A stretch of DNA of 64,000 bases from Naegleria gruberi. Its lineage: Eukaryota. A model generated the notes under the pieces. The model ran no database searches. It was given only the letters and a program-made list of their open reading frames with translations, and was not told the origin of the DNA. Numbering within the stretch: position 1 is the stretch's first letter; every line of letters begins with the position of its first letter. Positions 4,206 through 60,405 of the stretch are shown here, piece after piece. The stretch lies in NCBI GenBank assembly GCA_000004985.1, contig GG738854.1. One strand, given 5' to 3'. Both the position numbers and the translations under genes were made by a program.

Positions 4206-7200
4206 ATGGTGCACCAAACTGAGTCGTCACCACTTTCCCATGGTGTTGAATCAGAAAGCTGCCGAAAGTCATCTGCGCATCACGGATTAACAACAAGAAC
4301 TCTTCCTCTCATAACGATCCTTCTATTCATTGGATATTGTTGGGTTTTTGTATCATCTTTAACTTTTTTATGGAATCACTCAACTACTAGTAATTACACA
4401 CGCAATTCGCCCAGTTTCGTCTTCATTGAAGCTGCTAATATTTGTTACACAATTTCAAGTACTGATCCAACCGTTTGCTCTGGTAATGGCACATGTATTG
4501 CTTTGAATACTTGTCAATGTTATCCAGGCTATTCAGGTAAGTTTACTTTCGAATTAACGTTGTGATAATCATTTCGTAGGAAATAAATGTACAACACTAA
4601 TAACATGTAATAACCTTGGAGTTAATGATACACAGGTTTGTTCGGGGCACGGTGTTTGTATCGCCAAAAACAATTGTACATGTACAGATGGATATTCAGG
4701 AGCTAGATGTCAAACCGCCATGCAATGTTATGGAATTGACTTTACCAACACGACCTATGTCTGTAACGGTAATGGTAATTGCACTGCTGCCAACAACTGC
4801 ACCTGTAAAGATGGATTTTCAGGTACCAGATGTCAAACAATCAGACAATGTAGTAACATTGATTTTAATGATCCAACAGTTTGTTCTGGCAAAGGATCTT
4901 GTGTTTCGAATAATAATTGTGAATGTCTAACTGGTTATACAGGTAGTCAATGCCAAAATGTCATGAAATGTTACACAATCCCATTTAATGATCCAAGCGT
5001 TTGTTCTGGAAAAGGTCAATGCATTGCTTCGAATAATTGTTCATGTATTCAAGGATTTTCTGGGACTAAATGTCAGAATGATGATTCTATATTTACGTGT
5101 TTTGGTTTTAACTCGACTAACCCTTTGGTTTGTTCTGGAAATGGAAATTGTACATCGAATGGAAATTGTACATGTAAAGAGGGATTTTCTGGGACTAAAT
5201 GTCAAAATGATGACAGCTACTTTACTTGTTATGATATTGATCCATCAAATACAACCTATGTCTGTAATGGAAATGGAAATTGCACAGCTCAAAATAATTG
5301 CACTTGTAAGGAAGGATATTCAGGAACCAGATGTCAAAACGCCATGCAATGTTATGGAATTGACTTTACCAACACGACCTATGTCTGTAACGGTAATGGT
5401 AATTGCACAGCTGCCAACAACTGCACCTGTAAAGATGGATTTTCAGGTACCAGATGTCAAACTAACAATAATTTAATTACATGTGGTGGACTACTTCCAA
5501 TTGATCCACAAGTTTGTTCTGGAAATGGAAATTGCACTGCCAAAAATAATTGTGATTGCCTTTATGGATACGTTGGTAATCAATGTGCTGATTTACTTCA
5601 ATGCTTTACAATTAATTACAGTGAAAGTTCTGTTTGTTCTGGAAATGGAATTTGCATTGAAAAAAACAACTGCTCCTGCTTTGATGGATATACAGGAAAC
5701 AAATGTCAGACATCAATTCTTCATACATGTTATGGATTAAATGAAACTGATCCACTGATATGCTCTGGAAATGGACAATGTGTTCAGAACAATAATTGCT
5801 CATGTATTTATGGATATAGTGGAAATCAATGTCAAAAAGTGTTGAAATGTCACACCATTACATTCAATGATCCATTGGTATGTTCTGGAAATGGAAATTG
5901 TTCGTTGGATGGAAATTGTACTTGTAAACAAGGTTTCAGTGGTAACAAGTGTCAAAATGATGATTCAGTTTTCTCATGTTACGGTTTTAATTCGACAGAT
6001 CCATTGGTTTGTTCTGGAAATGGTAATTGTACTGCTGACAATCAGTGCAATTGTACAGATGGCTTTAGTGGAAATAAGTGTCAGAATAATGATAATTTAT
6101 TCACATGTAATGGAATTGATTCGAATAATGCAACTGTTTGTAGTGGAAATGGAATTTGTATTTCACAGAATAATTGTTCTTGTTTTTCTGGATTTTCTGG
6201 AAACAGGTGCCAAAAGGATGACAATTTTTTCACTTGTTTTGGTATTGACCTATCAAATTCCACAGTTTGTAATGGAAATGGTATTTGCGTTTCACAAAAC
6301 AATTGCACCTGCTTTAGTGGCTATTCAGGAAACAAATGTCAAAATAATGACATGATTATCAGATGTTACGGAATTGAGTCTACTGATAGCTCAGTATGTT
6401 CTGGTCGTGGTAATTGCACCTTTGATAATACTTGTAAATGCAAAGATGGATTCAGTGGAAGTCAATGTCAAAATGATGATAATATTCTCAAATGTTATGG
6501 AGTTGAGTTCAACAGTCCATTTGTTTGCTCTGGAAATGGAAATTGTTCTTCATTTGGTAATTGCTCATGTTTTGAGGGATTTTCAGGGAAAAAATGTGAA
6601 TTTGATTTGAATTCCAATGAGACAGCATCATCTAATTATACATGTTATGGTATTAATGGTGGATTATCTACTGTTTGTTCAGGAAATGGAAATTGCATTG
6701 CAGATAATGTTTGCGAATGTTTCTATGGATTTGATGGGTCTCAGTGTCAGAAAACACTTCAATGTTATGGAATTGATTACAATAATCCAAGCGTATGTTC
6801 AGGCAATGGTATTTGTAATTCAAGAAACTCTTGTTCATGTTATGAAAATTACGTTGACACCAAATGTCAAACGTACAGAGATCCAAACGCCACCTCATTC
6901 AAATGTTATGGTGTTCAATCGAATGATTCAAGTGTTTGTTCTGGCAGAGGAAACTGCACAGCAGATAATTTCTGTGAATGTCAAACAGGCTTTAAAGGTT
7001 CCAAATGTCAAAATTTGGTCAACTATTGCTTTGGCATTGATGAATATTCCAACAATGTTTGTTCAGGAAATGGAAAATGCACAAGTCAAGATACATGTGA
7101 ATGCTCTTCCAATTATTTTGGAAACGATTGTGGTGTTTACATTCTTCCAGAAACAAGTACAATCAAGATTCTTTCCAAATATTTGTATTTGATTGATAGT

Positions 7201-10008
7201 GCAACAGAGAATAATGTGATAACAGTTAGATCACAAAGATTGGTTAATAATTATAAGGGAATGGAAAGTAGATTGAAAAGCGTGTTGATTTTGTCAACTG
7301 AGCTAGTCAATTATGAATTTTCCCAAATTGGGCTTTTTGACAAGTTACAATTGTTTTCAAATATGACTGTTGGTGAATATACAGCAAATTTGACGATTGT
7401 AGATACTGGTTACAATATTGTTGTTGGACAATCTATTGTAAAGTCACTATTTAATGTTATGACTCTCCAACAATTGAGTCAACCTGAAATTCTTTCAAAA
7501 TTAACACCTAAGGAAATTAATCAAATTACAAGAGAATTGAAAAGAATATCAAATGACCAACAAGTTGTCTCCAATATAGTTTCGAATTTCAAGGATAATG
7601 TCAATAACTATACTTTGGATGATGGTTTGGATTTGACATCTTCTTTATTAGATTTGTCAATAACTAAATTAGAATCTAAAGAAAAGATAACTATTTCAGA
7701 AACATTAACTTCTTTCACGCAGAATTTAATTGAAAGCTCGTCAAATTTCACTTCAGAACAAGTGACACCTATTGCCATCAATATTGTGTCTGTGGCTTCA
7801 AATATTCTCGACAATTCTGGCGATAATTCAGCTGGTAAATCGCAAATAATTGGAAAGTCAATCGAATCTATTGAAAAAACTATTTCTTTAATTTCAGTTG
7901 TAAACTCGACAGAAAATTTATTGATTACAACTTCAAAGATTATGGTTTTGCTAATTTCCAAGGCAGAATATAAGAATTCACACGTGATCGATAAGGATTA
8001 TTCTTTATCTCTTCCAGAACTCGATTTTGGATTTTCGTTTGGTTTAGTCAAGTATGAAAATTATTTGACAGATGACTTACAGAATACTACAGCTATTTCA
8101 GATATTCTACAAGTGAGACCATTATCAAATGGAGTATTCACACCACTCCGTAATCTTTTAACTCCATTCAACTTGACCTTCTCTATTAAGAAATACGAAA
8201 CCCCAAATAATGAAACAATCGCAACTGTTGTTTGTAAATATTGGAATGAAACAAGAAGTGAATGGTTGAAGGACGGCTGTGTAACTACAATATTATCAGA
8301 AACTCAAGTAATGTGTTCTTGCTATCACACAACCAAGTTTTCTTCATTTGTAGATTATTCGAATATTGACTTTACAACAAGAACAGCTCAATCTTCACTT
8401 GCAGTTGCTAATATTATATTTAGTTCTATATTCATTGTAATCATTATTGTAATTCTCATTCTATTAGTGGTGTTTAGAAAATCTCAACCTGTCAAATCAA
8501 GACACGTGACTCCTTACCTTGCATTGACATCCTTACTCATTGAAAACTTAGTTTCTGGAATAATTTCTAAAGGACTTTTACTTGACAAGTACAATTTCAA
8601 TATAACCATCATGACAAGCGTCTGTGCAGTCATTTCTACTGCTTTATTGACAAGCGCAGTTTGGTGTTATTTCGTCATGTCTGTTCGATTCATTATTCAT
8701 AGATATTTCTATGAATACATGATGAGAATAGTAGAAAATAGACAGCAGAAGAATAATCTATTAATCAAGATTTTGAATATTTTCAAGCAAGATAAGGTTT
8801 TGATCTTGTCAAGTGTCATGCTTGCTGTTGGATTTATTTTATATTTTGCTATTTTTGTAATTTTGAGAGGAGTTTCTGTATTTTCTGATTCACAATTTAC
8901 CTATTCAACTACTATTTCATTATTTATTTTTTTACTTTCAATGACAGCAATGATTTTTGGCATTTATATTTTAGATTTTTATTTGGATTGCACTAACAAG
9001 CAATTAAGAGATGAATTGGTTGATATTTCAGATGAAATAATGTTAGTAGAAAGTGGAGACTCCCACCTAAGCAATTTGAATTCCAGAAAATCACTCAAGA
9101 TTACAAAACCATTTATTGAGCTATTGGAACAATCTCAAGTGAAAAAGATTGTGAGCTTGTTTTATTCGAATGACAAGCTCATGTTTAGACCAGAGGCAGT
9201 TTTCTTCATGACTGGTATGCTCTTCTTTACAGTTTCGTACTGTTTAGGATTTGCAAGCGTCAATGATCGTTACTTAATCAACCCTTCAGCTGCCATAACT
9301 CAACATGTTGATGTGTTAGATGCCATATCATTCCTCTTTGACATTCTCATGACTATTTGTTTTATCATTAGTTTCGGTGGTTTCTCCGTTTGTTGGGCCA
9401 TTGTAATTGAATCCAGAAAGAAGAATTGTTTCGTTGAATCTAAACAAGTTGTTATTAAGGAACGAATTAAGTCTCAAAGATTGGAAAATCTTGCAGATAT
9501 GACCGACAAGTTTGATATTTACAAACTCATGAAAAACAAGTATTTGCTTAGATTATTCCGTCAATATTCGAAACTGGAAATGTCATTAGAAAATTATGTA
9601 ATTTGGATGAGAATTGAACATGCCAAGTCTAAATTTGCTAAATTATGGATAGAAATGGAAGGAGAACCAGAATCGATTGAGGAATGGAATTTATTGTTAC
9701 AAGAATTGGAGGAATGGTTGACAGAGCATATTTCATCAGAAGCTGAGCTATCTCTCAATGTCAGTGCTCGTTCAAAGAAGCAGTTTGTGACAGCAGTGAG
9801 AGTATTGGAAACTAAGGTTGCAAGTATTCCATCAAAGAATAGAGATTCTTTATTGAATTTGAAACAAACTGTCAGAGATGCTATTGAATCATTGACCACT
9901 GATGTTTTATATAATTTGATGGACACTTATTCAAGATTTATCATTACTAATGAATACAAAGCCATGAAGGAAGTAGAAGCAGTTACAGAAATGACAACTT
10001 TCAAATAA
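4206..10008 (+). CDS. adhesion-GPCR-like receptor (latrophilin-like, LrlA-type): N-terminal signal anchor, ~34 EGF-like repeats, GPS motif, 7TM; 2 exons
   Basis: Exon 1 is 4206..4536 (ATG 'aaacaacaaaATGgtg'; M-VHQTES.., then TM 'LPLITILLFIGYCWVFVSSLTFL', then the first EGF module). The intron is 4537..4579 (GTAAGT..TAG, 43 nt, phase 1). Exon 2 is 4580..10008, joining the 1762-aa track ORF in frame. Tandem 'C.G.D...P.VCSGNG.C...N.C.C..GFSG..CQ' modules run through about 7140. The GPS motif 'CKYWNETRSEWLKDGCVTTILSETQVMCSCYHTTKFSSF' lies at about 8232-8350, followed by seven hydrophobic helices (about 8400-9420) and a cytoplasmic tail. About 1919 aa. Confidence 0.7.
4700..4838 (+). repeat. intragenic near-identical direct repeat, copy 1 (one EGF unit)
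   Basis: Bases 4720-4838 match 5344-5462 at 118 of 119 positions (actgctgcc vs acagctgcc). Identity extends about 20 nt upstream with 1-2 mismatches. This explains the identical alternative-frame track ORFs 4616..4930 and 4988..5476. Confidence 0.8.
5324..5462 (+). repeat. intragenic near-identical direct repeat, copy 2
   Basis: See copy 1. The two copies are 624 nt apart inside the EGF-repeat array of the adhesion-GPCR-like gene. Confidence 0.8.
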
Positions 10009-17296: not shown

Positions 17297-17369
17297 GCCC
17301 CGCTAGCTCAGTCGGTAGAGCGTTGGACTTTTAATCCAACGGTCGTGGGTTCGAGCCCCACGTGGGGCG
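17297..17369 (+). tRNA. tRNA-Lys (anticodon UUU)
   Basis: Acceptor stem GCCCCGC/GTGGGGC (one G-U pair), D-arm GCTCAGTCGGTAGAGC (A box), anticodon loop CT-TTT-AA, T-arm GTGGG-TTCGAGC-CCCAC (B box), discriminator G. 73 nt, no intron. Followed by the run 'gcaattttttttttgc' (Pol III terminator, 17375-17386). Confidence 0.9.
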
Positions 17370-17639
17370 GTTGCAATTTTTTTTTTGCGCCTTAACGTTT
17401 TTTTGAGAGTTCTAGCATTTGTTGAAACTCTATTAAGAAAAAATAAGACAACATCTTGTTCTAAGGAACCTGCTGTTATTAAGAAATCCGCTCTGCAATT
17501 AATACCCTTGTTAATTACAGAGAAATCACACAATACAATAGAATCAAATTGGTTAAATTGTGATTAAGCTCCATCACCATTTCGAATTATATTCAATTCT
17601 ATATAATATTATTATTCAATCCTAACCACTCGGAAGAAC

Positions 17640-34764: not shown

Positions 34765-35765
34765 TTACAATATTCCAATAATTCCTGCAATTTGGCCTAA
34801 AAGACCTTCCATCGTTGAAGTAACCATTTCAGTAATTACATTAACATTCAATGTTGAATAAGCAACTGAAATTACCACTTCATCTCCATCGAATTGAGTT
34901 AATTCCACGATGGATAACTGAGGATGCCATCTCACTGAATTAATTCCTCCTTCGGTATTTGGTTTTAGTCTATTTGTGATAACCTTTGTCAAGATGAAAT
35001 AATTGTCCACTCCAGAAATTGCATAATTGGTCTCTGCAAATACATTAGGTACTGTTCCAGTTTCGTGAAAAGAAACTTGCAAACCAAATCTTGAATCTCT
35101 ATTTTCAGGAACAAAAGGGACATGAAAATAGAATGAAATAGTTCCTGCATATCCAATATCAGTAGCTTAAATTGTGAATGAGATTTTTCCTTGCTCGTTA
35201 ATCACTTACCATTCAAAAGTGATTGGCTCACATTATTGAATACATAACAATTGAACAATTGACCATTCTGAAAAAGCACAACTCTATCATAATGAGGATC
35301 CAAATTTTCCACAATTCCCAATGTAGAATTCACTTTCGTTGCAAACTTTAACGTTAAATTACAATAATCACAATCCAACATTGCATTCCAGTTACAAACA
35401 GTAATAGCTGGAAACGGTAAAGGAACTGACTCGATAAATGTTGTGGCTGTTGTTGGATTACTAATACTCTGCACAAATTGTTCGGAAGAGTCAACAATAT
35501 ACCATATACACATTGCTGTTGCTATGAACCACCCAATGCATGTTATTGCTCTGCTCACCTTAGTGTACATCCATGTTTTCTTCTTCTTTTTCCTCCGTTC
35601 TTGAAGTGTTTGCTGTATTTGCTGAATTTGCCTCACTTGTTCCATTCTGATTTCGGAATCCTGCACTCCATCATCACACACAGGACCTACTTGAACCTGA
35701 ATCCCAGACAACGTCTCGAACGTTGTAGAATTGGAACATTTCTCCTCCTCATTGTTTGTTGCCAT
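34765..35765 (-). CDS. two-TM membrane protein with an ENaC/degenerin-like post-TM1 'FPAITVC' motif (tentative family), 2 exons; paralog 1 of a tandem pair
   Basis: Exon 1 is 35765..35210 (ATG at 35765). The intron is 35209..35166 (GTAAGT..TTTAAG, 44 nt, phase 1). Exon 2 is 35165..34765; about 318 aa. Cytoplasmic N-tail with a K-run, TM1 'AITCIGWFIATAMCIWYIV', then 'SVPLPFPAITVCNWNAMLDCDYCN' (compare ENaC 'FPAVTIC'), a Cys-containing ectodomain and a C-terminal hydrophobic segment 'EGLLGQIAGIIGIL'. Confidence 0.55.
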
Positions 35766-36030: not shown

Positions 36031-36847
36031 TCAACAAGCAAAAATTACAAAGCCAACTCTTAATAATAAACTTACAAAATTCCAACCATGCCAGCAATTT
36101 GCCCTAACAACCTTCAACGAAGTTGTGTAAATTTCTGAAATTTGTCTCAAATTCATAGAAGCATAAGCTACCGAAATAACAATGATATCATCATGTGTAT
36201 CGGTGAGTTCTATAAAGGACAATACTGATTCCCAACGAACCGAATGTAAGCCATCTTCTTTCGTTGGTTTCAATCTTGTGGTTAACACTTTTGTAACAGA
36301 AAAGAAATTGTCTACATTTGGAATGGCAAAGTTTGTCTCTGAAAAAACATTTGGCACAGTTCCAATCTCATGAAATGAAATTTGCAGACCGAATCTTCCA
36401 TCCAAACTCTGGGGCACGAGAGGGAGCTTAAAGTAGAATGTTAAAGTTCCAGAATATCCAACATCCTTTGCTGTTTCGAATGAGAATTATCCGCATAAAT
36501 TCAAATACGAACCTTCAACAGGATTCATCGACCTATTATTAAATACTAAACATTGAAATGGCTGTTCGTGCTGAACTACCACCTTACTATCATATTCCAT
36601 TGTGTAATTCTCCACAAAACCAGTTTCACTATTCACTCTCGTCAAGTGTTCCAAAGAAAGGGAGCAAAACTCACAATCATGCAAAGCATTCCAATTACAA
36701 ACAGTCATTGCAGGATAATATAAAGGAACCGAATCAACATAGGATGTTGCTGTGGTCGGATTTTCAAGTGCCGAGATGAAATTCGTTATTATATGAATAG
36801 GCAATATAAAATCCACAAACTCCCATCGCCACAATCCATCCAGCCAT
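36031..36847 (-). pseudogene. paralog 2 of the ENaC-like two-TM gene, disrupted by a 1-nt frameshift just after TM1
   Basis: Same two-exon structure (intron 36512..36471, GTTCGT..AAACAG, 42 nt). TM1 'MAGWIVAMGVCGFYIAYSYNNEF' reads in one frame and hits TGA; 'ISALENPTTATSYVDSVPLYYPAMTVCNWNALHDCEFC' continues in the adjacent frame, with an extra C at 'gaattt-c-atctcg' near 36777-36782. Further upstream (36949..37224) is a third frame with a His-rich tract, so the N-terminus is also unclear. Confidence 0.45.
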
Positions 36848-37340
36848 TGTGATTAATTCTCCAAAGTGAGGCAATCTGATACTCCAGTTTTTCCTTAATT
36901 GTGTCCATTTACTTTTATTAAGGGTGCCCTGCAAATTGGTATTATTTCCTATTGTCTGATGATTAAGTTGATGATGATGATTATTATTGAATAATTTTCG
37001 TGATGATGAAGATGACGACCATGATGATGATGATTGATGATGTGATGAGGTGCCTTCTTTGGCGACCTTCCAACCTCTATATAAACACTATCTGAACTGA
37101 GAATCGACTTGTCTCTTCTTGGAAACGAAGTGTGCATTTTTTTGAGTGTTGTTAAGGGAAGTTTGAATACGGATTTGGAGTTCCATAGCCATAACTGAAA
37201 CATTGTTGTAGAAAGAAAATTCATTTCTTGGGTTATGATATATTGGTGAAGATGAATTGGAGGGTTGCTGCTTATTCCAGATGTCTACAACCAGCACACT
37301 ATGGAAAGAATATAAAAGAATAATTTTTTAAATATGCGAA

Positions 37341-37425
37341 GCTCATATAGCTCAGTGGTAGAGCATTTGTCTTATGAGAACTTAAGGTTAGCAGATGGCC
37401 GAGGGTTCGACCCCCTCTATGAGCA
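37341..37425 (+). tRNA. tRNA-Ile (anticodon UAU) with 13-nt intron
   Basis: Acceptor GCTCATA/TATGAGC, D-arm GCTCAGTGGTAGAGC, anticodon stem TTTGT/GCAGA (two G-U pairs), loop CT-TAT-G[intron AGAACTTAAGGTT at 37377-37389]A, variable TGGCC, T-arm GAGGG-TTCGACC-CCCTC, discriminator A. Eukaryotic tRNA-Ile(UAU) characteristically carries an intron. Followed by 'aattttttgc'. Confidence 0.8.
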
Positions 37426-37781
37426 GTTCAAATTTTTTGCTTTTTAGTAGTGTTAAAGATTTATTAGAAGATTTCAATTCCAATTAATTAGCTCCAATCT
37501 TTTGTAGAGAATAAGAAATCTTTACGAGGTTGTTTTTGAGAATACTTTCTCTTGACTACCATGGAATGCGAATCTCTTTGATTCCACTTCATACTGGTAA
37601 CCTGAATATTGTCCAACTTGTTTTTAAGTGGTTTGTCAGATACGTGGTGTAAATAGGGTTCGTCCTGGCCAAATGACTTTCCAGATGAAGATCTGCCAGA
37701 AGAGCTCCAAGGAGACAATTGTCCAAAACGAAAGCTTTGTAAAGAGATTAGGTTAGGTAATATAAAGCAAAAAATTTGAAC

Positions 37782-37866
37782 TGCTCATAGAGGGGGTCGA
37801 ACCCTCGGCCATCTGCTAACCTTAAGTTCTCATAAGACAAATGCTCTACCACTGAGCTATATGAGC
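37782..37866 (-). tRNA. tRNA-Ile (anticodon UAU) with 13-nt intron, inverted duplicate
   Basis: Exact reverse complement of the 37341-37425 copy, convergent (tail-to-tail) with it. Confidence 0.8.
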
Positions 37867-38059
37867 TTCGCATATTTAAAAAATTATTCTTTTATATTCT
37901 TACCCATTCAACTTTTCTTGTCTCTTTATGGTTTGATGCTACATTTCAGAACCAACATTCATTCCTTTCTGGCCAGAATAAAAATTTAGAAAGATTATTT
38001 GATGAAATTGTTTACAAATTTAATGTAATCATCAATTTGTTCGTTTCAAAACAAAAAAA

Positions 38060-39079
38060 ATGATCAATCGCGATAATGATGAAGATAAAGTTTCTTTCAC
38101 CTTCTTTAATTTCACTCAATCCGAAGTCTGCAATCCTCTTTATGCTAAACTTCGTGAAAAACTTTCGTCCAACAAGAGCAAAACCTTCTCCATGCAATTT
38201 ACTCCCCACAAAACGATTGGCTATCAAAGGCCTATAATTACCGAGGACGGAGATGTGGAAGAAGTTTCTAATGAAGAGAACAAGTTGAAACTTCATTATC
38301 CTTCCGATATTAAAATTGCTCGCCATCATGGTTGTCTTGTAATTGCTGATGATCATAATGATAGAATAGTATTTCTCAATTTGGATAATTATCAATTGAG
38401 GACTGAATTTATTTTGGAAGAGAATGTCACTGATTTTTGGATTGAGTCTGATAGTGCTGGAAATGAATATATTTATTTTGGAGATAATGGAATTACTTTT
38501 AAATTTAATATTGCCAAATTGGTTGAACATGCACAAGTCAAGTTGAAAGATATAGAGCCTATGTGGAAGATTTCTGAAAAACTGTCTGGATCTATAATGG
38601 TAATACATGATACAAGTAGAAAGGAAAAGGTAGTATTGAGATGGAACAATGATGCACAAGGATTAAATGCTCATAGAGATTGTGATGGTTCTCTATTGGC
38701 CAAATATCCAGTCTTGTCGTTGTGTGATTCTCCTGGACTGTTTGCCATTTCAAATTCAGAATTCATTGCTCTCAATCACGAATCTAATATGGTCTTTAAA
38801 ATTACATTTACCGATGGCAAATGTGAAAACTCAGACATGTTTCAAGTACAAAATCATTGGAAACATCCACTTTCGGTTGCAAAAGAATTGAATCAACCTA
38901 GAATTTACATCTCAGATTATGGAAATAAGAGGATTGTTGTGTGGGACTTGTTGCAGGGGTGTGAAATTAAAATTCACCACGAGGAACATCTCCATCCATT
39001 TGGAATTTTCTATGACGATCAATCTGGACTACTCTATGTTGTCGATCAACAAGCTTCTATCATTCGAGTGTATCAGTAA
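38060..39079 (+). CDS. NHL-repeat-like beta-propeller protein (hypothetical)
   Basis: 339-aa ATG ORF after an A8 run. Repeated 'hydrophobic-x-V/I-x-D-x-x-N-x-R-I-V-V-W/F' blades: 'HHGCLVIADDHNDRIVFLNLD', 'PRIYISDYGNKRIVVWDL', 'GLLYVVDQQASIIRVYQ'. Confidence 0.5.
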   Translation: MINRDNDEDKVSFTFFNFTQSEVCNPLYAKLREKLSSNKSKTFSMQFTPHKTIGYQRPIITEDGDVEEVSNEENKLKLHYPSDIKIARHHGCLVIADDHNDRIVFLNLDNYQLRTEFILEENVTDFWIESDSAGNEYIYFGDNGITFKFNIAKLVEHAQVKLKDIEPMWKISEKLSGSIMVIHDTSRKEKVVLRWNNDAQGLNAHRDCDGSLLAKYPVLSLCDSPGLFAISNSEFIALNHESNMVFKITFTDGKCENSDMFQVQNHWKHPLSVAKELNQPRIYISDYGNKRIVVWDLLQGCEIKIHHEEHLHPFGIFYDDQSGLLYVVDQQASIIRVYQ

Positions 39080-43712: not shown

Positions 43713-44028
43713 TTCTTCTTTTCAAAAAACTATTTAGCAATCTTTTTCATATTAAATCGCTATTGCCTTTTTATGAGATATCAACAAGCAGTCTATTTAT
43801 TACTTGATTTTGTAAAGTTTTTTCTTTTCCTATCATCTTTCTGCTCAAAAAAAATCCACTTTAACTCTTGTTAATTCCATTGGTGAGTAGTGTCGATAGA
43901 TCTGTAAGCGTTTTGGCTCATTAACCTTTTCGTGAGTATCCCCGCCTTAGTTACAATCGCTTTTCCATCGAACCAGTAATCTCCAGTCTGCACTTGAAGA
44001 ACCAAAGTCACGTTGATCTCAAAAAAAA

Positions 44029-46281
44029 ATGTTTAGTAACTGCCATCATCATGATGATGCTGAACGTGTAGTAATTATATTGGACGATCATGACAAATTT
44101 ATGGAACAATTATTGAATAGCAAATATAAACAAGAACGAAATTTATCATGCTACAAACAAATATTAAAATATTTAACTAATACGAGAGGTTTAATATTAA
44201 AGTATTATGAATTACCTGTTATATTACGAAGAGATCGGAGATTCATCACTGAAATTGCACAAACTTTTGAATTTTACCAACAATTACCTGAAGAATTTAA
44301 ATCCGATAAACAAGTAATGCTAAATTGTTTTAAAAAGAAAGTATTTAATGGAAGTGATATTAAGAGTGGATATATTCCCTCTAATTTAATGAATGATAGG
44401 AAATTTATATTGGAATTAATTGAAGGAAATCCAACATGTCTCTATTTAGTACCGAAAGAAAGAGAATTCGTGTTGGCAGCAATGAAACACGATATTATAT
44501 ATTTGGGATTTCTCCCAGGAAGTGAAAAGAAGAATGAATCATACATGTGGGAATTGTTTTTGAAAAATTGGGAAAATTTAAGATTTGCAAGTGGTGAATT
44601 ACTAAATAATCCATCATTTGCTATAAAAGTAAGAAAGCATGATACCAATACTTTCAACTATTATTGTGGACGGCCACATTTGGCGGTTCATGCAAGGGAT
44701 AAATTTCGAAATAATAGAGAATATGTGCTTTTTGCTATTTTACATGGAAAAGCTGATTTTACAATGATAAAAAAGGTATTTCAAGCGGATTTGGAAATTA
44801 AAATGGCAAATAATATTAAAACTGATGCCTCCTTATGGAAATTAAAGGAAGAATGGGCAAATGACAAGGAAATGATTTTGAAATATGTCAAACATAATTC
44901 AAATATATTGAAATTTATTAATTTGGAATTACTACAGGATTATGAATTTAATATTAAATTAATTTACAAAAATATTGAAAGTATTCAATTTATTAATGAA
45001 TGCAATACTAATTTTAAACAATTATTTACACAATCAGATAAAACTGAATTAATTTCTAGATATTTAAGCAACAAAAAATTTAACATTAATTCCAAAATTA
45101 TAAATCCAACTAATATTAGAGCATTTGGTTCCAAAATTAATTATATACATTTTATAGAGGAATATTTAAATGAAAACGATTTAATTTATATAACAAGTAA
45201 TATTGATGGACAAGCATGTTACGGTTTGTTAAACGTAATTTCCAATAAGAAAATTTTCAATGAATGCTTACAATTATGGAAAATAACAGTTAAAAAGCAT
45301 TATTCATGTTATGAATTATTTAATATAAAATATACCAAACAAGATATTATTGAGATAATTTCATCCATGCATGAATCTCCTTTTCCATTCCTGGCACACA
45401 TTGATAGAAATGTATTTAGCTCTGAGAGTGAAGTTCTTCTCATTGCAATTCAAACCCATTTCAAGTGCTTTGAATTGGCAAGTAAAGAACTGAAATCTGA
45501 CTTGAATTTTATTAGAAAGTCAGTCAATTTAAATAGAAATATTATTAAAGTAATAGATTTGCAAATTGTACAAGATAATTTGGATTTATTGATTATTTAT
45601 ATAAATTATAAATTAAAAATCAATACCATGTATGGATATCAAAATAGCGCTCATGCATTAAATCCATTAATTAACATATTAGCAAAACATTTACAAAATG
45701 AGGATACAGTTTTACAATTAGTAGAAATACCCCAATTTGTAAATTTATTTTATGGCCATATAGATATTAATTTAAGATCAAGTGAGGAATTCTGTTTAAA
45801 AATATTAAAAACAGATTTGAATAATGCCACTAAAATTCCAAATTTAATTAAATATAGAAATTTCATAATTGAATTTCTAAAAGAGGGAAAATCCATTACA
45901 TTCATTCCTAAAATATTCGAACAGGATGAGGAATTTTTACATTTATTTTTTAAAAACTGGAATCGTACGGAATACCTTCCAATATTACCAGCGGATGAAA
46001 TTTTTATTGGTATTCTAATTAAGGAATTGAAAATTAACCCATCCATATATAGAAATTTTAATAATAGTGATCCGTTGAAACATAATTGGGATATATTATT
46101 GAATGTTGCCAGAGATGTAAATAGCTGTTTAGTTTTTCCCACCACAATATGGCAAGATGAGAATTTTAAATTGGAACTTGTGAAGAGAGGAATTTTTCCA
46201 CCTTCCTTTTTGAAACATTTTAATAGCATTTTGAACGATATGGATTTGATTGTAGAAAATGGTTTTTACTTGATTCAATAA
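44029..46281 (+). CDS. DUF4116 repeat-containing protein
   Basis: 750-aa ATG ORF after an A9 run. At least 8 tandem ~30-aa repeats of the DUF4116 type ('D/N-+-E/Q-hydrophobic-hydrophobic-L-x-hydrophobic-hydrophobic-K-x-N'): 'DKQVMLNCFKKKVFNGSDI', 'DRKFILELIEGNPTCLYLV', 'EREFVLAAMKHDIIYLGF', 'NPSFAIKVRKHDTNTFNYY', 'NREYVLFAILHGKADFTMI', 'DKEMILKYVKHNSNILKFI', 'DYEFNIKLIYKNIESIQFI'. Confidence 0.55.
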   Translation: MFSNCHHHDDAERVVIILDDHDKFMEQLLNSKYKQERNLSCYKQILKYLTNTRGLILKYYELPVILRRDRRFITEIAQTFEFYQQLPEEFKSDKQVMLNCFKKKVFNGSDIKSGYIPSNLMNDRKFILELIEGNPTCLYLVPKEREFVLAAMKHDIIYLGFLPGSEKKNESYMWELFLKNWENLRFASGELLNNPSFAIKVRKHDTNTFNYYCGRPHLAVHARDKFRNNREYVLFAILHGKADFTMIKKVFQADLEIKMANNIKTDASLWKLKEEWANDKEMILKYVKHNSNILKFINLELLQDYEFNIKLIYKNIESIQFINECNTNFKQLFTQSDKTELISRYLSNKKFNINSKIINPTNIRAFGSKINYIHFIEEYLNENDLIYITSNIDGQACYGLLNVISNKKIFNECLQLWKITVKKHYSCYELFNIKYTKQDIIEIISSMHESPFPFLAHIDRNVFSSESEVLLIAIQTHFKCFELASKELKSDLNFIRKSVNLNRNIIKVIDLQIVQDNLDLLIIYINYKLKINTMYGYQNSAHALNPLINILAKHLQNEDTVLQLVEIPQFVNLFYGHIDINLRSSEEFCLKILKTDLNNATKIPNLIKYRNFIIEFLKEGKSITFIPKIFEQDEEFLHLFFKNWNRTEYLPILPADEIFIGILIKELKINPSIYRNFNNSDPLKHNWDILLNVARDVNSCLVFPTTIWQDENFKLELVKRGIFPPSFLKHFNSILNDMDLIVENGFYLIQ

Positions 46282-48452: not shown

Positions 48453-49503
48453 TTTTTTTAATGTTCTTCTTGATTCGAAAGTGAAATGTGAAAGGAGAGG
48501 AGGCCTTCTTTTGAAGTTACCATTTGGAGAACATTGGAAAGTTACATAATTTCTTATGATACTCCAATAGGGTTTTAAAAATCCTATATATTACAACATT
48601 TAGTAAATAAATTATATTTAATTTCTTACCTAAATTCATTGGAATGATAGTAAGGATGAAGAAAATGAGGACGAGGAGAACATTATGATATTGTTGTTGA
48701 TGACGTTGTTGTAACATTTTTTAAGGCTATTAATATCATCATGTTCATGAACAACAGGAGAACACAACGATTAAGCGCGCCCGAGTATATTTGTGTTGAT
48801 GATATGGCTAAGGAAATAATATTTGTTCTGATGATTAATTAATTGTTATTGGTTGAGGAATTTAAACGATGGTGTGATGGTGGTAATGATATTAAATAAC
48901 TGAGTTGGTTTTGTTGAAGAGTTGATGATAGAGAGTGTGTTGTGTAAATTTGTGTGAAGAAAAGCAATCTATTCATGAAGATTTCTTCTCTGAAATGTAT
49001 TTTGAGAATTGGTATTGGTATTATTAATCCATCATGATGAGAGCCACAAGCAGTTTTCACTAATTTTTTAATTTGTTGTTTTTTGTTTAATTTTCATAAC
49101 GGAAACAACCGCGCCAAAAAAATGTCTTCTAATTGTTAGTCGGATTTGGACAACAAGAAACAAAATCAAACGGAAGATTGTTTATTGCACATAATTTGGC
49201 TCAATGCTACCTCTATGTAGTCGGCTTTATGGATTTGATGCAAATTAAATAATTAACAAAAACACACCAAGCCTTGAAGAAATTAAATTACAATATTAAT
49301 TATTATGTTATTGGGCAATTAAGCGAAATAATGAAAGAAGAAACCACTAGAACCCTTTCACCCATTATCAATCATTATTGCAATAGGAGTCGTTTCGCTT
49401 TTATAGCAATCGCGTAATTTCTTACTTCCAACTCCTGTCAAACTAAACCCAACTCAAACACACATGTAGATCTTGAACATACCATCAGAACATTCAGCAA
49501 AAA

Positions 49504-52500
49504 ATGTATCGAATGGGTTTATTTGAATGCCTTCAGTTGTTGATTGTTTGTTGTTTGACATTGGCAATGATAAGTTGTTCTAATGCCCAGACCAGATCAG
49601 TTGATTACAAAATAACAACACTTGCTGGAGGATTGTATGGAGAAGGAGTGAGAGCAACAAATGTTGGTATTAATGGACCGTTTGGTGTTTATTCATCATC
49701 TCTTTCTGGTGGGAACGTTTATTACACAGATGTTTCATATGGGCAAGTGAGATTTGTTGATTCGAATGGAATTTCACATCTTGTTGCTGGCTCACCAACT
49801 TATCATACAGGAACAGCCACAGATAGCTTGACTTTTGCAAATGATACCTTGAACATGCCACACAGTATTTCGTTCAATTCGAATGGAGAGATGTTTATTG
49901 CAGAGTACAACGCAACAAGGATTAGAAAGGTTTATTACAATTCAACTATTGGAGATTACAGTATGATTACTGTTGCTGGAGGTGGTTCTTCTCTTAGCAG
50001 TAACATTTCAGCTCTCAATGCCAAGTTCTCTCAACCTCGATGTGTTGTTGTTTCGCCAAATAATGAAGTTTACATTTGTGATACAGGTAATTACATGATC
50101 AGAAAGATTGTGAATGGTGTTGTGTATAATATTGTTGGAAATGGACAGCAGGGATCAAGTACTGATGGCACTCTTGCTGTCAATGCCAAAGTTTCTCTGG
50201 TATTGAGTGTTGCCTTTCATCCAGTGAGTGGTGAATTGTTCTTTTCTGATTATTCCAATAATGCAATCAAGTATGTCATGAATAATGGCAGCATTTTCAC
50301 ATATGCAACATCTAGTGGCCCTTATGGAATTGCTTTCGACTCGAGTGGCGATAATTTATATGTGGCAGAGTATGGATCTAACAAGATTGTTAAATTCACT
50401 AATGGTGTTAGATCTGTAATTGTCAATACTTTGGGCACAAAAAGTTTCAGTGGAGATGGTGGTAGTTCTTTGAGTGCAACCATCAATCTTCCTGCTGGTA
50501 TTGCACTGAATGGAAATAATCTCTACTTTGCTGATACTGCCAACAATCGTATTAGAGTGGTCAATTTACAAACCAGTATTGTGAATACTATTGCAGGTGA
50601 TGGAACTGCAAGATTCCTTGGAGCTTACTCTGGATCAAGATCAGATGTTTCATTATTTAGACCAGAGACAACATTTTACAATTCACAGACTGATGAGTTG
50701 CTGGTGGCCGACACCCTCAATCATCGCGTAGTTAGAATCAACTCACTGACAAATATCAATACATCCCCAATTGAATCTATTGCTGGTTATACTGGTATTG
50801 CTAGCAATGATGTTGCAGGCAAGTTGGGAAATCAAACCTATCTCAATTATCCATACTCTGTAGCTCAATCAGAAACTAGTGGTGATGTCTATTTTGGAAC
50901 CACTAATTTTGTTTACAAATGGGGAAAGAAAGATCAAAAGATTACACTCATTGCTGGATCGAGTAGTACATTGGCAGGCGATAATTATCTTGCTGTTGGT
51001 TCACAATTATATCAACCAGCTGGTATGGCCTTTGCTTCAAATGGAGATTTATATTTTTGTGATTCTAATAATCATGCTATTAGAAAGATTGATACTCAAG
51101 GTGTGATTACAACACTAACTGGAAATGGAACAGCAGGATTCCAAGATGGTGATGCTGCAAGTGCACTTTTCAATAGTCCAGCTAGTATTGCCTTATTACC
51201 AAATGGCGATTTTCTAGTTGCTGATTTTACCAATTCTAGAATTAGAAAATATGTTGCCAGTACCAAACAAGTTGTTACTATTGCTGGTAATTCAACTCTT
51301 GGTTTCTATGGAGATAATGGACTGGCTTCAAAGGCACTTCTAAACAAACCTACAGGTGTTTTCTATAATTCCACATCAGGTGATATTTTGATTGCTGATT
51401 ATTTCAATTTCAGAATTAGAAAAATTTCCAATAATACAGGAATTATTACAACCATTGCTGGATCTGGTTCAACCAGCTACAATGGAGATGGATTGGCAGC
51501 AACATCTACAAGTATGGCTCCATACGGATTGGCAGTAAATCCAATTAGTGGGGAGCTGTTCTTTACTGATAATGCCAACTTTCTTGTTAGAAGAATTGAT
51601 GCCAGCTCTAAGGTTCACACAGTAATTGGTGTTGCTAAAAGTACAATTTTCAATGTAACCAGTTTGGCCAATTCAACTGGTTTATCTTCAATTTCGTTCT
51701 TGACATTTTCACCAAGTGGTGATCTTTATGTTTCTTGCTTTGGACAACATGTCATCAAAAAGATGAGTTATGGTAGCGATATTGTTTATAATGTAGCTGG
51801 TACAGGAAATACAGATTTGAATGGAGATGGATTGGAAGCAACATTGACCAATCTTTATCAACCAATTGCTGTAGCTTACTCTCCTACTTCCAGTGAATTA
51901 TACTTTTCTGATTATTTACATGATAGAGTGAGAAAAATAACCTCTTCAGGATTGGTTGAAACAGTTGCAGGAGGTTTAGGTGATAAGGGATTGGCTGTTA
52001 ATGCAAAAATCAGAGGTGTTTCATCAATATTACTGGTAGACAATGATTTATATATCTCTGATGCATTCAATTATAGAATTCGTAAAATTTCCCTCTCAAC
52101 TGGTATTATTGATTCCATTGTTGGAGCATCATATGCATCTATTTACAATGGAGATAACTTGGCCAATCAAACCAATATTAACTATGTATGGGATCTGAGA
52201 ATTCAAAACGGTGAACTTGTATTTGCTGACATGAACAATAACTTAATTAGGAAAACAAGTTTATCTGGTAAAGGAAAGGTAACAACCATTGCTGGTATGG
52301 GTACAAACAATGCTTCGATTATTATCGATAATGTCAAGGCAACAAGTGCCTATTTGAAAAACCCTGGTTCTGTTGCATTCTTACCAACTGGTGATATGAT
52401 TATTGCAGAGACAGAAGGTCATATCATTAGAAAGGTTGATTTGAATGGCAATATTTCACTCATTGCTGGATCATTCTTCCAACCAGGTTTCAATGGTGAC

Positions 52501-53535
52501 TTGTCAGATTCAAAGAATTCTTTATTGTATCAACCAACAGGACTTTCTATTTTACAGGATGGTAGAATCATCTTCTCAGACTTTGGAAACAATAGAGTGA
52601 GAATGTTAACACCATATTGTAAGGATGAAAAGTATTATTTGACTCAATCTTCACAAGGTATTGTCTGCAACATTACTTCATGTTATGGACTCGCCTACAA
52701 TGATGCAAAAGTTTGTTCAGGAAATGGAATTTGTTCATCATTGAATAACTGCAGCTGCTCAAGTGGATATTCTGGAAACGATTGCTCAACTGCTGATATT
52801 TGTTCTGTCTTGTCAAGCTCATATGTTTGTACAACAACGTCTCTCAACACAACTGAAACTCAAGTTACAACAGTTCAAAATGTCACTCAATTGGATTCGA
52901 AAACTATCGAGTTCTCATCTACAAGTACTGTCACTGTTTCACTGCCATCAACAATTTCACAATACTTGACAAGTGTTGATTCAACATTGAAGAATGACAC
53001 TGTTACTGTTGTCAGTTCTGTTTCATCAGCAAGCAAAGTAACAGAAACTTCTGAGGTTATTTCACCAGTCATCTCAATTGTTCTTGTCAAGTCAAGTTCT
53101 AATCAAAAAATTTCTGTCCAAAATCTCGAAGAACCAATTTCATTATATTTCAATAAGGTCAACATGACTGTTTCGAATATTGAAACCTTGAATGTAACTT
53201 GTATGTATTATGATGAAAGTGAAAAGGTATGGAAATCGGATGGGGTTGAAAGTGAAATTACAGAGATTATTCTCCACAACCTTGCTGATGGAAATGTTAC
53301 CTTGACAATTTCACTTACATGCAAGACTTTCCATTTAACTTCATTTGGAATCATTGATCAAAACTACAAGAAGGCAACTACTAACTCTAATACTGACGAT
53401 TCCACAATCTTGACAGATTACACAGTTTTAATAGGTGCCATTGTTGGTGGTGTTGGTGGATGTTGTGTTATTGCCACAATTATTACACTCATCATTGTTG
53501 TCATTATCTTTGTAAGAAGAAGAGGAAAGAAATAA
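49504..53535 (+). CDS. secreted/single-pass protein with NHL-type beta-propeller repeats, EGF-like module, GPS motif and C-terminal TM (teneurin- or PKD-REJ-like architecture)
   Basis: 1343 aa. Signal peptide 'MYRMGLFECLQLLIVCCLTLAMISCSNAQT'. More than 15 NHL-like repeats ('LYVAEYGSNKIVKF', 'LYFADTANNRIRVV', 'LYFCDSNNHAIRKID', 'FLVADFTNSRIRKY', 'ILIADYFNFRIRKI', 'LYISDAFNYRIRKI'). EGF module 'CYGLAYNDAKVCSGNGICSSLNNCSCSSGYSGNDC', Ser/Thr-rich stalk, GPS 'CMYYDESEKVWKSDGVE...LTISLTCKTFHLTSFGII' (about 53198-53350), TM 'LIGAIVGGVGGCCVIATIITLIIVVIIFV', and a short basic tail RRRGKK. Confidence 0.7.
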   Translation: MYRMGLFECLQLLIVCCLTLAMISCSNAQTRSVDYKITTLAGGLYGEGVRATNVGINGPFGVYSSSLSGGNVYYTDVSYGQVRFVDSNGISHLVAGSPTYHTGTATDSLTFANDTLNMPHSISFNSNGEMFIAEYNATRIRKVYYNSTIGDYSMITVAGGGSSLSSNISALNAKFSQPRCVVVSPNNEVYICDTGNYMIRKIVNGVVYNIVGNGQQGSSTDGTLAVNAKVSLVLSVAFHPVSGELFFSDYSNNAIKYVMNNGSIFTYATSSGPYGIAFDSSGDNLYVAEYGSNKIVKFTNGVRSVIVNTLGTKSFSGDGGSSLSATINLPAGIALNGNNLYFADTANNRIRVVNLQTSIVNTIAGDGTARFLGAYSGSRSDVSLFRPETTFYNSQTDELLVADTLNHRVVRINSLTNINTSPIESIAGYTGIASNDVAGKLGNQTYLNYPYSVAQSETSGDVYFGTTNFVYKWGKKDQKITLIAGSSSTLAGDNYLAVGSQLYQPAGMAFASNGDLYFCDSNNHAIRKIDTQGVITTLTGNGTAGFQDGDAASALFNSPASIALLPNGDFLVADFTNSRIRKYVASTKQVVTIAGNSTLGFYGDNGLASKALLNKPTGVFYNSTSGDILIADYFNFRIRKISNNTGIITTIAGSGSTSYNGDGLAATSTSMAPYGLAVNPISGELFFTDNANFLVRRIDASSKVHTVIGVAKSTIFNVTSLANSTGLSSISFLTFSPSGDLYVSCFGQHVIKKMSYGSDIVYNVAGTGNTDLNGDGLEATLTNLYQPIAVAYSPTSSELYFSDYLHDRVRKITSSGLVETVAGGLGDKGLAVNAKIRGVSSILLVDNDLYISDAFNYRIRKISLSTGIIDSIVGASYASIYNGDNLANQTNINYVWDLRIQNGELVFADMNNNLIRKTSLSGKGKVTTIAGMGTNNASIIIDNVKATSAYLKNPGSVAFLPTGDMIIAETEGHIIRKVDLNGNISLIAGSFFQPGFNGDLSDSKNSLLYQPTGLSILQDGRIIFSDFGNNRVRMLTPYCKDEKYYLTQSSQGIVCNITSCYGLAYNDAKVCSGNGICSSLNNCSCSSGYSGNDCSTADICSVLSSSYVCTTTSLNTTETQVTTVQNVTQLDSKTIEFSSTSTVTVSLPSTISQYLTSVDSTLKNDTVTVVSSVSSASKVTETSEVISPVISIVLVKSSSNQKISVQNLEEPISLYFNKVNMTVSNIETLNVTCMYYDESEKVWKSDGVESEITEIILHNLADGNVTLTISLTCKTFHLTSFGIIDQNYKKATTNSNTDDSTILTDYTVLIGAIVGGVGGCCVIATIITLIIVVIIFVRRRGKK

Positions 53536-59988: not shown

Positions 59989-60332
59989 TTGTGTGTAATT
60001 TTTTTTAACAATTTTGTTTCGCATAAACTATTGGAAATGGCATGAGCTGTTAGAACATTGCTTTTTTGATTGTAAACCTTTCCATCGTGTGTAGTGGAAA
60101 GTCAATATTCTCGGCGAACTGTTAATTATTGTGTTACTTTTTACAATTGCTCGTTTCCTAATATTCTTCACGACTTTACAAATTTTTCTTGGTAGATTAA
60201 AAAAGACTGAGATTAAAGGTATCAAATGTTTAGGTTGCACAATTATGTTCTTAGAATTAGTTTGATTTTTATTCCCTTCAGCAGTTAACATAGTCAGTTC
60301 AGGCAGCCAAAAATCCAAGATAAAATTGCAAC

Positions 60333-60405
60333 CGCCCCACGTGGGGCTCGAACCCACGACCGTTGGATTAAAAGTCCAACGCTCTACCGACTGAGCTAGC
60401 GGGGC
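60333..60405 (-). tRNA. tRNA-Lys (anticodon UUU), second copy
   Basis: Exact reverse complement of the 17297-17369 gene. It shares the immediate flanks 'gagca|tRNA|gttgcaatttt' and is followed by T-runs on the minus strand. Confidence 0.9.

What the first reader, a model, noticed from the sequence alone, without database searches (positions are those of the whole stretch)
37306..37901. Perfect palindromic duplication carrying two convergent intron-containing tRNA-Ile(UAU) genes
Two 138-bp arms (37306-37443 and 37764-37901) are exact reverse complements, including about 35 bp of upstream flank, the 85-nt pre-tRNA with its 13-nt intron, and the T6 terminator. They are separated by a 320-bp spacer. 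Perfect identity extending into normally fast-evolving flanks implies a very recent inverted duplication or ongoing gene conversion. Such palindromes are recombinogenic hairpin or cruciform-prone structures and can act as fragile sites or boundaries.
Basis: seen in the sequence. Interest (0 to 1): 0.6.

Follow-up and report, generated by a model that had tools for sequence, protein, structure and literature searches.

The report
Convergent identical tRNA-Ile gene pair
Two identical, intron-containing isoleucine tRNA genes face each other 320 bases apart in the amoeba Naegleria gruberi; this is an ordinary local gene duplicate of a kind already counted in this genome, not a special palindromic element.

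Summary
Bases 37306-37443 and 37764-37901 are exact reverse complements (138 nt), separated by 320 nt. Each arm holds a complete Pol III unit: a TATAAAA box at -30, an 85-nt tRNA-Ile(UAU) gene with a 13-nt intron at the canonical 37/38 position, and a T6 terminator.

Homology stops at the arm ends. The outer flanks and the two spacer halves are no more alike than shuffled sequence.

The organism is Naegleria gruberi, not a dictyostelid. A flanking ORF is 100% identical to an N. gruberi predicted protein.

A published survey of this genome reports 924 tRNA-like loci. It counts four same-isotype +/- pairs lying within 1 kb, and this pair fits that definition.

The best reading is a local inverted duplication of a minimal tRNA transcription unit, either recent or kept identical by gene conversion. 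Its likely effect is simply a second gene copy for AUA decoding.

The cruciform or fragile-site idea is weak. In yeast, hairpin-driven instability of inverted repeats falls steeply once the spacer exceeds about 100-200 bp.

I found no target-site duplication, no mirrored genes around the pair, no viral match and no real homologue of the spacer ORF. An assembly fold-back is unlikely because the flanks and the spacer are unique.

The parts
37306..37443 (+). Left arm, exact 138 nt (extends with mismatches to 37303-37449)
37311..37317 (+). TATAAAA at -30 to -24 from the mature 5' end of copy 1. Inferred to be the upstream Pol III (TBP/TFIIIB) element. The outer edge of the arm lies just beyond it.
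   Evidence: Sequence read; function inferred
37341..37425 (+). tRNA-Ile(UAU) gene, copy 1, 85 nt. A box TAGCTCAGTGG at 37348-37358, anticodon TAT at 37373-37375, B box GGTTCGACCCC at 37404-37414.
   Evidence: Rfam tRNA 61.4 bits; ARAGORN tRNA-Ile(tat)
37377..37389 (+). 13-nt intron AGAACTTAAGGTT between positions 37 and 38. Intron UAAG pairs with loop CUUA, and the 3' splice site lies in a 4-nt bulge.
   Evidence: ARAGORN i(37,13); Rfam 16-vs-3 insertion in the anticodon loop; constrained fold
37433..37438 (+). T6 Pol III terminator of copy 1, 8 nt after the gene
   Evidence: Sequence
37444..37763 (.). Unique, non-palindromic 320-nt spacer. It holds a 91-codon open frame on the minus strand with no real homologue.
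   Evidence: halves not mirrored; no Pfam; only spurious repeat-driven hits
37764..37901 (-). Right arm, exact reverse complement of the left arm
37782..37866 (-). tRNA-Ile(UAU) gene, copy 2. Intron 37818-37830, terminator 37769-37774, TATA box 37890-37896 (all mirror coordinates).
   Evidence: mirror coordinates follow

Best explanation
These are two functional-looking copies of the nuclear tRNA-Ile(UAU) gene of Naegleria gruberi in convergent orientation. The duplicated unit is a minimal, complete Pol III transcription unit: a TATA-like box at -30, internal A and B boxes, the 13-nt intron and a T6 terminator.

The pair arose by a small local inverted duplication, for example a template switch during replication or repair. 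It is either young or has been kept identical by intrachromosomal gene conversion between the arms. I cannot tell which from one genome.

Its effect is most likely just gene dosage for decoding AUA. The intron fits the general eukaryotic pattern for this tRNA, in which the intron is needed for pseudouridylation of the anticodon (my own knowledge, not tested here).

What is shown: the structure, the tRNA identity, the sharp limits of homology, the species, and that such pairs are a counted class in this genome. What is inferred: the duplication mechanism, gene conversion, expression and dosage.
For: - The arms are exact over 138 nt. Homology ends at the arm edges: outer flanks and spacer halves align no better than shuffles.
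- Both copies are good tRNAs (61.4 bits). All stems pair. The intron is canonical, with an anticodon-intron helix and a bulged 3' splice site. A box, B box, TATAAAA at -30 and T6 can be read directly in the sequence.
- The species is N. gruberi: the flanking ORF 38060-39079 is 100% identical over 339 aa to an NCBI N. gruberi predicted protein on a 665-kb contig.
- PMC2888827 supplement 2 gives for N. gruberi 924 tDNAs and 77 adjacent pairs under 1 kb. Same-isotype pairs number 8 (++), 4 (+-) and 0 (-+), against 1.02, 0.51 and 0.51 expected at random. Local duplication of tRNA genes in both orientations is therefore a known feature of this genome.
- An internal comparator exists. The identical tRNA-Lys(UUU) pair at 17297 and 60333 shares only 16/35 upstream and 15/18 downstream bases. 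The 35/35 and 18/18 of the Ile pair therefore reflect recent copying or conversion, not constraint alone.
- ATA makes up 1.36% of codons and 18% of Ile codons in the window's long ORFs, so the tRNA is in regular demand.
Against: - I could not obtain an orthologous locus or any other N. gruberi tRNA-Ile(UAU) copy. Recent duplication and gene conversion therefore remain unresolved. I also cannot exclude that the 138-nt unit is a genome-wide module.
- Expression and splicing are untested.
- The mature anticodon loop would be CUUAUGA, with G at position 37. ANN-reading tRNAs usually carry A37 (my own knowledge). However, more than 120 metagenomic tRNA(UAU) genes with the same CTTATG loop exist.
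Confidence: 0.8

Rival explanations
1. Functional or hazardous palindrome. The inverted repeat extrudes a cruciform or hairpin and acts as a fragile site, a recombination hotspot, a replication barrier or a chromatin boundary between the two divergently transcribed neighbour genes.
For: As single-stranded DNA the 602-nt unit folds into a long perfect stem (-192 kcal/mol). The pair sits in an intergenic region of roughly 0.9-1.2 kb between a minus-strand ASC-like gene and a plus-strand gene, so each tRNA gene is divergent from its neighbour. From my own knowledge, tRNA genes act as barriers in yeasts.
Against: The spacer is 320 nt and the arms only 138 nt. In yeast, inverted-repeat recombination falls about 300-fold from a 12-bp to a 100-bp spacer, and gross rearrangements fall about 20-fold from 12 to 200 bp (PMC10164571). 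Nothing in the sequence specifically indicates a boundary role, and a single tRNA gene would serve equally well as a barrier.
Confidence: 0.06
2. Assembly artefact: a fold-back chimera or misjoined reads created the second copy.
For: Perfect identity of the arms. I could not inspect any reads, and the N. gruberi gene was not on record in the contig index.
Against: A fold-back artefact mirrors everything beyond the junction. Here only 138-147 nt are mirrored. The 320-nt spacer and both outer flanks are unique and non-palindromic. The flanks continue into different intact genes on a 665-kb contig. The whole 596-nt unit is also about the length of one Sanger read; that the assembly is Sanger-based is my own recollection, not checked here.
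Confidence: 0.04
3. Mobile element: a 596-602-nt MITE-like unit whose terminal inverted repeats are tRNA-derived, or an insertion delivered by a virus or transposon.
For: The layout is formally that of terminal inverted repeats around a short unique core.
Against: There is no target-site duplication at either candidate boundary (37303/37904 or 37306/37901; sequence). No other copy of the arm or the spacer occurs in the 64-kb window. An exact scan of viral contigs found nothing. The spacer ORF has no real homologue and no Pfam domain. The arms are complete, intact tRNA genes rather than degraded tRNA-derived ends.
Confidence: 0.03
4. Core of an old large palindrome. The nested order Lys> ... 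Ile> <Ile ... <Lys, with similar Lys-Ile distances (19,972 and 22,467 bp), is the remnant of an inverted segmental duplication of about 20 kb per arm in which only the tRNA genes stayed recognisable.
For: All four tRNA genes of the window form two nested convergent identical pairs. The arm lengths are similar.
Against: All-against-all blastp of six-frame ORFs finds no mirrored paralogues between 17-37 kb and 38-60 kb. Inverted hits (best E 0.007) are no better than same-strand control hits (best E 0.036). Both arms are packed with different genes. The Lys flanks are mostly diverged. With 924 tDNAs in 41 Mb, a repeated isoacceptor within 64 kb is not very improbable.
Confidence: 0.03

Closest known systems
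Same-isotype anti-parallel tDNA pairs within 1 kb, as catalogued across eukaryotes including N. gruberi (Bermudez-Santana et al. 2010, PMC2888827)
   Same: Two adjacent tRNA genes for the same amino acid, under 1 kb apart, first on the + strand and second on the - strand. That survey counted four such pairs in the N. gruberi assembly.
   Different: The survey gives counts only. It does not describe arm identity, flank extent or this particular locus.
Dictyostelium discoideum tRNA gene pairs and triplets with identical anticodons (Eichinger et al. 2005, as cited in PMC8163159)
   Same: Multi-copy tRNA genes occurring as nearby identical pairs. My own recollection of the 2005 paper is that it read these pairs as recent duplications.
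   Different: A different supergroup: Amoebozoa versus Heterolobosea.
Eukaryotic nuclear tRNA-Ile(UAU) genes with a canonical 37/38 intron (yeast, human)
   Same: UAU anticodon, intron directly 3' of position 37, anticodon-intron helix, internal A and B boxes, oligo-T terminator.
   Different: The intron is short (13 nt) and position 37 is G rather than the usual A.
Fragile long inverted repeats (Alu inverted repeats in yeast, human palindromic AT-rich repeats)
   Same: 100% identical inverted arms longer than 100 nt.
   Different: The spacer is 320 nt rather than 0-20 nt and the arms are shorter. Published spacer dependence predicts little cruciform-driven instability.
Palindromes homogenised by arm-to-arm gene conversion (human Y-chromosome palindromes, plastid inverted repeats)
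   Same: Inverted arms that stay identical while the spacer is unique. Gene conversion is one of the two explanations left open here.
   Different: Those arms span kilobases to megabases and carry many genes. Here each arm is a single 138-nt Pol III unit, and conversion has not been demonstrated.

Membership tests
Nuclear tRNA-Ile(UAU) gene | Cloverleaf that reaches the Rfam tRNA gathering score | tested here: met
   61.4 bits against a gathering score of 29, both copies. All four stems pair.
Nuclear tRNA-Ile(UAU) gene | Anticodon UAU, with an intron between positions 37 and 38 and a bulged 3' splice site | tested here: met
   ARAGORN (tat) i(37,13). The constrained fold shows the CUUA/UAAG helix and a 4-nt bulge.
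Nuclear tRNA-Ile(UAU) gene | Pol III signals: A box, B box and a downstream T run of 4 or more | tested here: met
   TAGCTCAGTGG, GGTTCGACCCC and T6 at +8 to +13, plus TATAAAA at -30.
Nuclear tRNA-Ile(UAU) gene | A37 (t6A), as usual for ANN-decoding tRNAs | tested here: not met
   Every possible 13-nt excision that leaves UAU gives G or U at position 37, and the canonical excision gives CUUAUGA. The same loop recurs in more than 120 metagenomic tRNA(UAU) genes. The feature is typical rather than strictly defining.
Nuclear tRNA-Ile(UAU) gene | Transcribed, spliced and charged with isoleucine | not testable with these tools
   No expression data are available.
Same-isotype anti-parallel tDNA pair (Bermudez-Santana class Ho+-) | Adjacent tDNAs under 1000 nt apart, same amino acid, + then - | tested here: met
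   The genes are 356 nt apart (37425 to 37782), both Ile, + then -. The class holds four pairs in N. gruberi.
Cruciform-forming or fragile palindrome | Long, near-identical inverted arms | tested here: met
   138/138 identical.
Cruciform-forming or fragile palindrome | Short or absent spacer (about 20 bp or less for strong effects) | tested here: not met
   The spacer is 320 nt (308 nt between the extended arms). Spacer dependence is taken from PMC10164571.
MITE / TIR transposon | Target-site duplication flanking the terminal inverted repeats | tested here: not met
   The flanks ...CACTATGG and CATTCAAC... share no direct repeat at either candidate boundary.
MITE / TIR transposon | Multiple dispersed copies in the genome | not testable with these tools
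   Only 64 kb of the genome is available. There is no second copy in the window.
Large palindromic segmental duplication | Mirrored paralogous content in the two arms | tested here: not met
   There are no mirrored ORF matches beyond the tRNA arms.

The most novel reading that the evidence does not exclude
The pair is a maintained functional module rather than a passive duplicate. In this reading, two convergent Pol III/TFIIIC-bound units are kept identical by gene conversion. They form a symmetric barrier in a compact bidirectional Pol II promoter region. Alternatively they yield double-stranded RNA from terminator read-through across the 320-nt spacer. The nested mirrored Lys...Ile/Ile...Lys order could reflect a tDNA-bounded chromosomal domain.
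Probability: 0.04. Interest if true: 0.5.

Novelty: already known. Interest (0 to 1): 0.12.

Why it matters
It matters little beyond annotation. The locus is a clean example of how a minimal Pol III unit (TATA box to terminator, 138 nt) is copied locally in a genome that carries an unusually large tRNA gene complement.

If closely related Naegleria strains were compared, the locus could show whether such pairs are young duplicates or are homogenised by gene conversion.

It also gives a practical caution. The two copies should produce identical primary transcripts, so RNA sequencing cannot assign expression to one copy.

Tried and rejected
- Large ancient palindrome. All-against-all blastp of six-frame ORFs found no mirrored paralogues. 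Rejected.
- Residual homology beyond the arms. Local alignment against 300 shuffles found none.
- Rfam scan of 36800-38100 at E up to 1. Only the two tRNAs scored well. The remaining matches (archaeal C/D snoRNA models at 36967-37047 and Plastid-ycf2 on the reverse strand of copy 1) are far below their thresholds. The snoRNA hits lie in a TGATGA-rich coding stretch. Treated as chance.
- Spacer ORF 37488-37763(-) as a gene. It has no Pfam hit. HMMER against 1.84 billion representatives gave two hits. P0007 scores E 2e-21 only because one weak 38-aa Ser-rich match (28 bits) recurs in many near-identical Ig-like repeats. P0008 is itself a translated tandem repeat. Rejected as coding evidence.
- Orthologous locus. 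The right-hand neighbour has no homologue besides itself. The phospholipase-B neighbour led to contigs L121-L123. These share only that gene and carry no tRNA, so there is no usable synteny.
- The look-up of encoding contigs for the N. gruberi gene: not on record.
- Metagenome scan. None carried the 13-nt intron and none was an inverted pair.
- Exact viral scan of the intron region: 0 hits.
- The bacterial promoter/terminator scan is not relevant to a eukaryote.
- Eichinger et al. 2005 (PMC1352341) is not held in the library.

Full report
**The observation**

A direct comparison shows that 37306-37443 is the exact reverse complement of 37764-37901, 138 of 138 bases. Allowing mismatches, the repeat finder extends the arms to 37303-37449 and 37758-37904, 147 nt at 98%.

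Between the exact arms lie 320 nt with 35% GC. Beyond the arms the similarity drops to background. Local alignment of 300 nt of the outer flanks, and of the two halves of the spacer, scores within the range of shuffled sequence. The palindrome is therefore real, sharply bounded, and far beyond chance.

**What the arms contain**

Rfam's tRNA model scores 61.4 bits (gathering score 29) at 37341-37425 on the plus strand and 37782-37866 on the minus strand. Both matches have a 13-nt insertion in the anticodon loop.

With the cloverleaf enforced, loop bases CUUA pair with intron bases UAAG. The 3' splice site then falls in a 4-nt bulge, which is the usual eukaryotic pre-tRNA layout.

The following signals can be read directly from the sequence:
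- an A box, TAGCTCAGTGG
- a B box, GGTTCGACCCC
- TATAAAA at -30 to -24
- a T6 run 8 nt after the gene

Each arm thus spans a complete minimal Pol III transcription unit, from just outside the TATA-like box to just past the terminator. The genes are convergent.

**Which organism**

The ORF at 38060-39079, about 160 nt to the right of the palindrome, is 100% identical over 339 residues to an NCBI predicted protein of Naegleria gruberi on a 665-kb contig. The window's 34% GC agrees with my recollection of that genome's composition, which I did not check here.

**The surroundings**

To the left lie two tandem paralogous genes on the minus strand with a weak amiloride-sensitive sodium channel match. 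To the right lie the 339-aa orphan gene and then a phospholipase B gene. The tRNA pair occupies most of a short intergenic region between divergently oriented protein genes.

The spacer has a 91-codon open frame on the minus strand, but it has no Pfam domain. A full HMMER search of 1.84 billion representative proteins gave only two hits. One is a weak 38-residue Ser-rich match multiplied across many near-identical repeats of an Ig-like protein. The other is a translated tandem repeat. I treat the spacer as non-coding.

**Is the pair part of something larger?**

The window holds four tRNA genes in two nested convergent pairs. tRNA-Lys(UUU) sits at 17297-17369 (+) and 60333-60405 (-), outside the Ile pair, with Lys-Ile distances of 19,972 and 22,467 bp. 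This suggested an old large palindrome.

An all-against-all protein comparison of six-frame ORFs found no mirrored paralogues between the two sides. Even at E up to 10, inverted hits were no better than same-strand control hits. I reject that reading on present evidence.

The Lys pair does serve as a useful comparator. Its two genes are identical, but the flanks match at only 16 of 35 upstream and 15 of 18 downstream bases. Constraint on promoter and terminator elements therefore does not by itself produce the 35/35 and 18/18 seen for the Ile pair. Those values need recent copying or gene conversion.

**What is already known**

A survey of eukaryotic tRNA gene organisation included the N. gruberi assembly (PMC2888827, supplement 2). 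It reports:

| Measure | Value |
|---|---|
| tDNAs | 924 |
| Adjacent pairs closer than 1 kb | 77 (39 expected) |
| Same-isotype pairs, parallel (++) | 8 |
| Same-isotype pairs, + then - | 4 |
| Same-isotype pairs, - then + | 0 |
| Random expectation for those three classes | 1.02, 0.51, 0.51 |

This pair meets the definition of the + then - class.

Identical tRNA pairs are also a noted feature of Dictyostelium discoideum (PMC8163159). The kind of structure is known, and it was counted in this very genome.

**Mechanism**

The most likely history is a small local inverted duplication of the tRNA unit, for example by template switching during replication or repair. The copies are either young or kept identical by conversion between the arms. 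One genome cannot separate these two possibilities.

The likely consequence is a second gene copy for decoding AUA, which makes up 1.36% of codons and 18% of isoleucine codons in the window's long ORFs.

**Rival readings**

- Fragile site or cruciform. This is weak. Yeast work shows inverted-repeat recombination falling about 300-fold when the spacer grows from 12 to 100 bp. Gross rearrangements fall about 20-fold from 12 to 200 bp (PMC10164571). Here the spacer is 320 nt and the arms are short.
- Mobile element. There is no target-site duplication, no second copy in the window and no viral match.
- Assembly fold-back. This is unlikely because only the arms are mirrored, while the spacer and both flanks are unique and run into different genes.

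**What could not be done**

I could not obtain an orthologous locus. The right-hand neighbour has no homologue. The contigs reached through the phospholipase B gene share no other gene with the window and carry no tRNA.

My single metagenome scan used too general a pattern. It returned 120 loci holding tRNA(UAU) genes, mostly on what look like viral or bacterial contigs. None had the 13-nt intron or an inverted arrangement.

**Verdict**

It is partly wrong on the taxon and on the fragile-site or boundary claim. This is an ordinary, already catalogued kind of tRNA gene pair, and interest is low.

Noticed in passing
window 17297-17369 (+) and 60333-60405 (-): A second identical convergent pair, tRNA-Lys(UUU), lies 43 kb apart and is nested around the Ile pair at similar distances (19,972 and 22,467 bp). 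Identity covers the gene plus 5 nt upstream and about 11 nt downstream (94-nt arms at 98%).
   Followed up: partly
window 37426-37438, 17370-17380, 60322-60332: All four tRNA genes are followed directly by the same kind of 3' trailer, GTT(C/G)(A/C)AATTTT. This may be a conserved trailer or terminator context in this genome, but with two gene families it could also be coincidence.
   Followed up: no
window 37376 (and mirror 37831): After splicing the anticodon loop would read CUUAUGA, with G rather than the usual A at position 37 of an ANN-decoding tRNA. More than 120 metagenomic tRNA(UAU) genes carry the same CTTATG loop. One of them (L112) matches the mature tRNA exactly over positions 8-42.
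   Followed up: partly
window 34765-35765 (-) and 36031-36834 (-): Tandem paralogous two-exon genes, 51-57% identical at the protein level, with a sub-threshold Pfam match to the amiloride-sensitive sodium channel family (21.7 bits against a cutoff of 23.6).
   Followed up: partly
window 4433-7165, within open frame 4558-10005; also 52671-52796 within 49477-53532: A long array of about 17-19 cysteine-rich repeats with a period of 120-132 nt. They look EGF-like but I did not run a domain search on them. One related unit occurs in a second large ORF 46 kb away.
   Followed up: no
window 44001-46000: The GC fraction drops to 0.258 against about 0.34 elsewhere in the window.
   Followed up: no
window 38060-39079 (+): This 339-aa predicted protein has no homologue other than itself among 5.8 billion clustered proteins and no Pfam domain. 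It appears to be an orphan gene directly beside the tRNA pair.
   Followed up: partly
L002 187-662 and L092 565-1040 (metagenome contigs, GC 0.26-0.27): Six tRNA-Ile(UAU) genes lie head to tail with almost no spacing on low-GC environmental contigs, one of them from a 54-kb contig. This is an unusual single-isoacceptor tandem array and is unrelated to the window.
   Followed up: no
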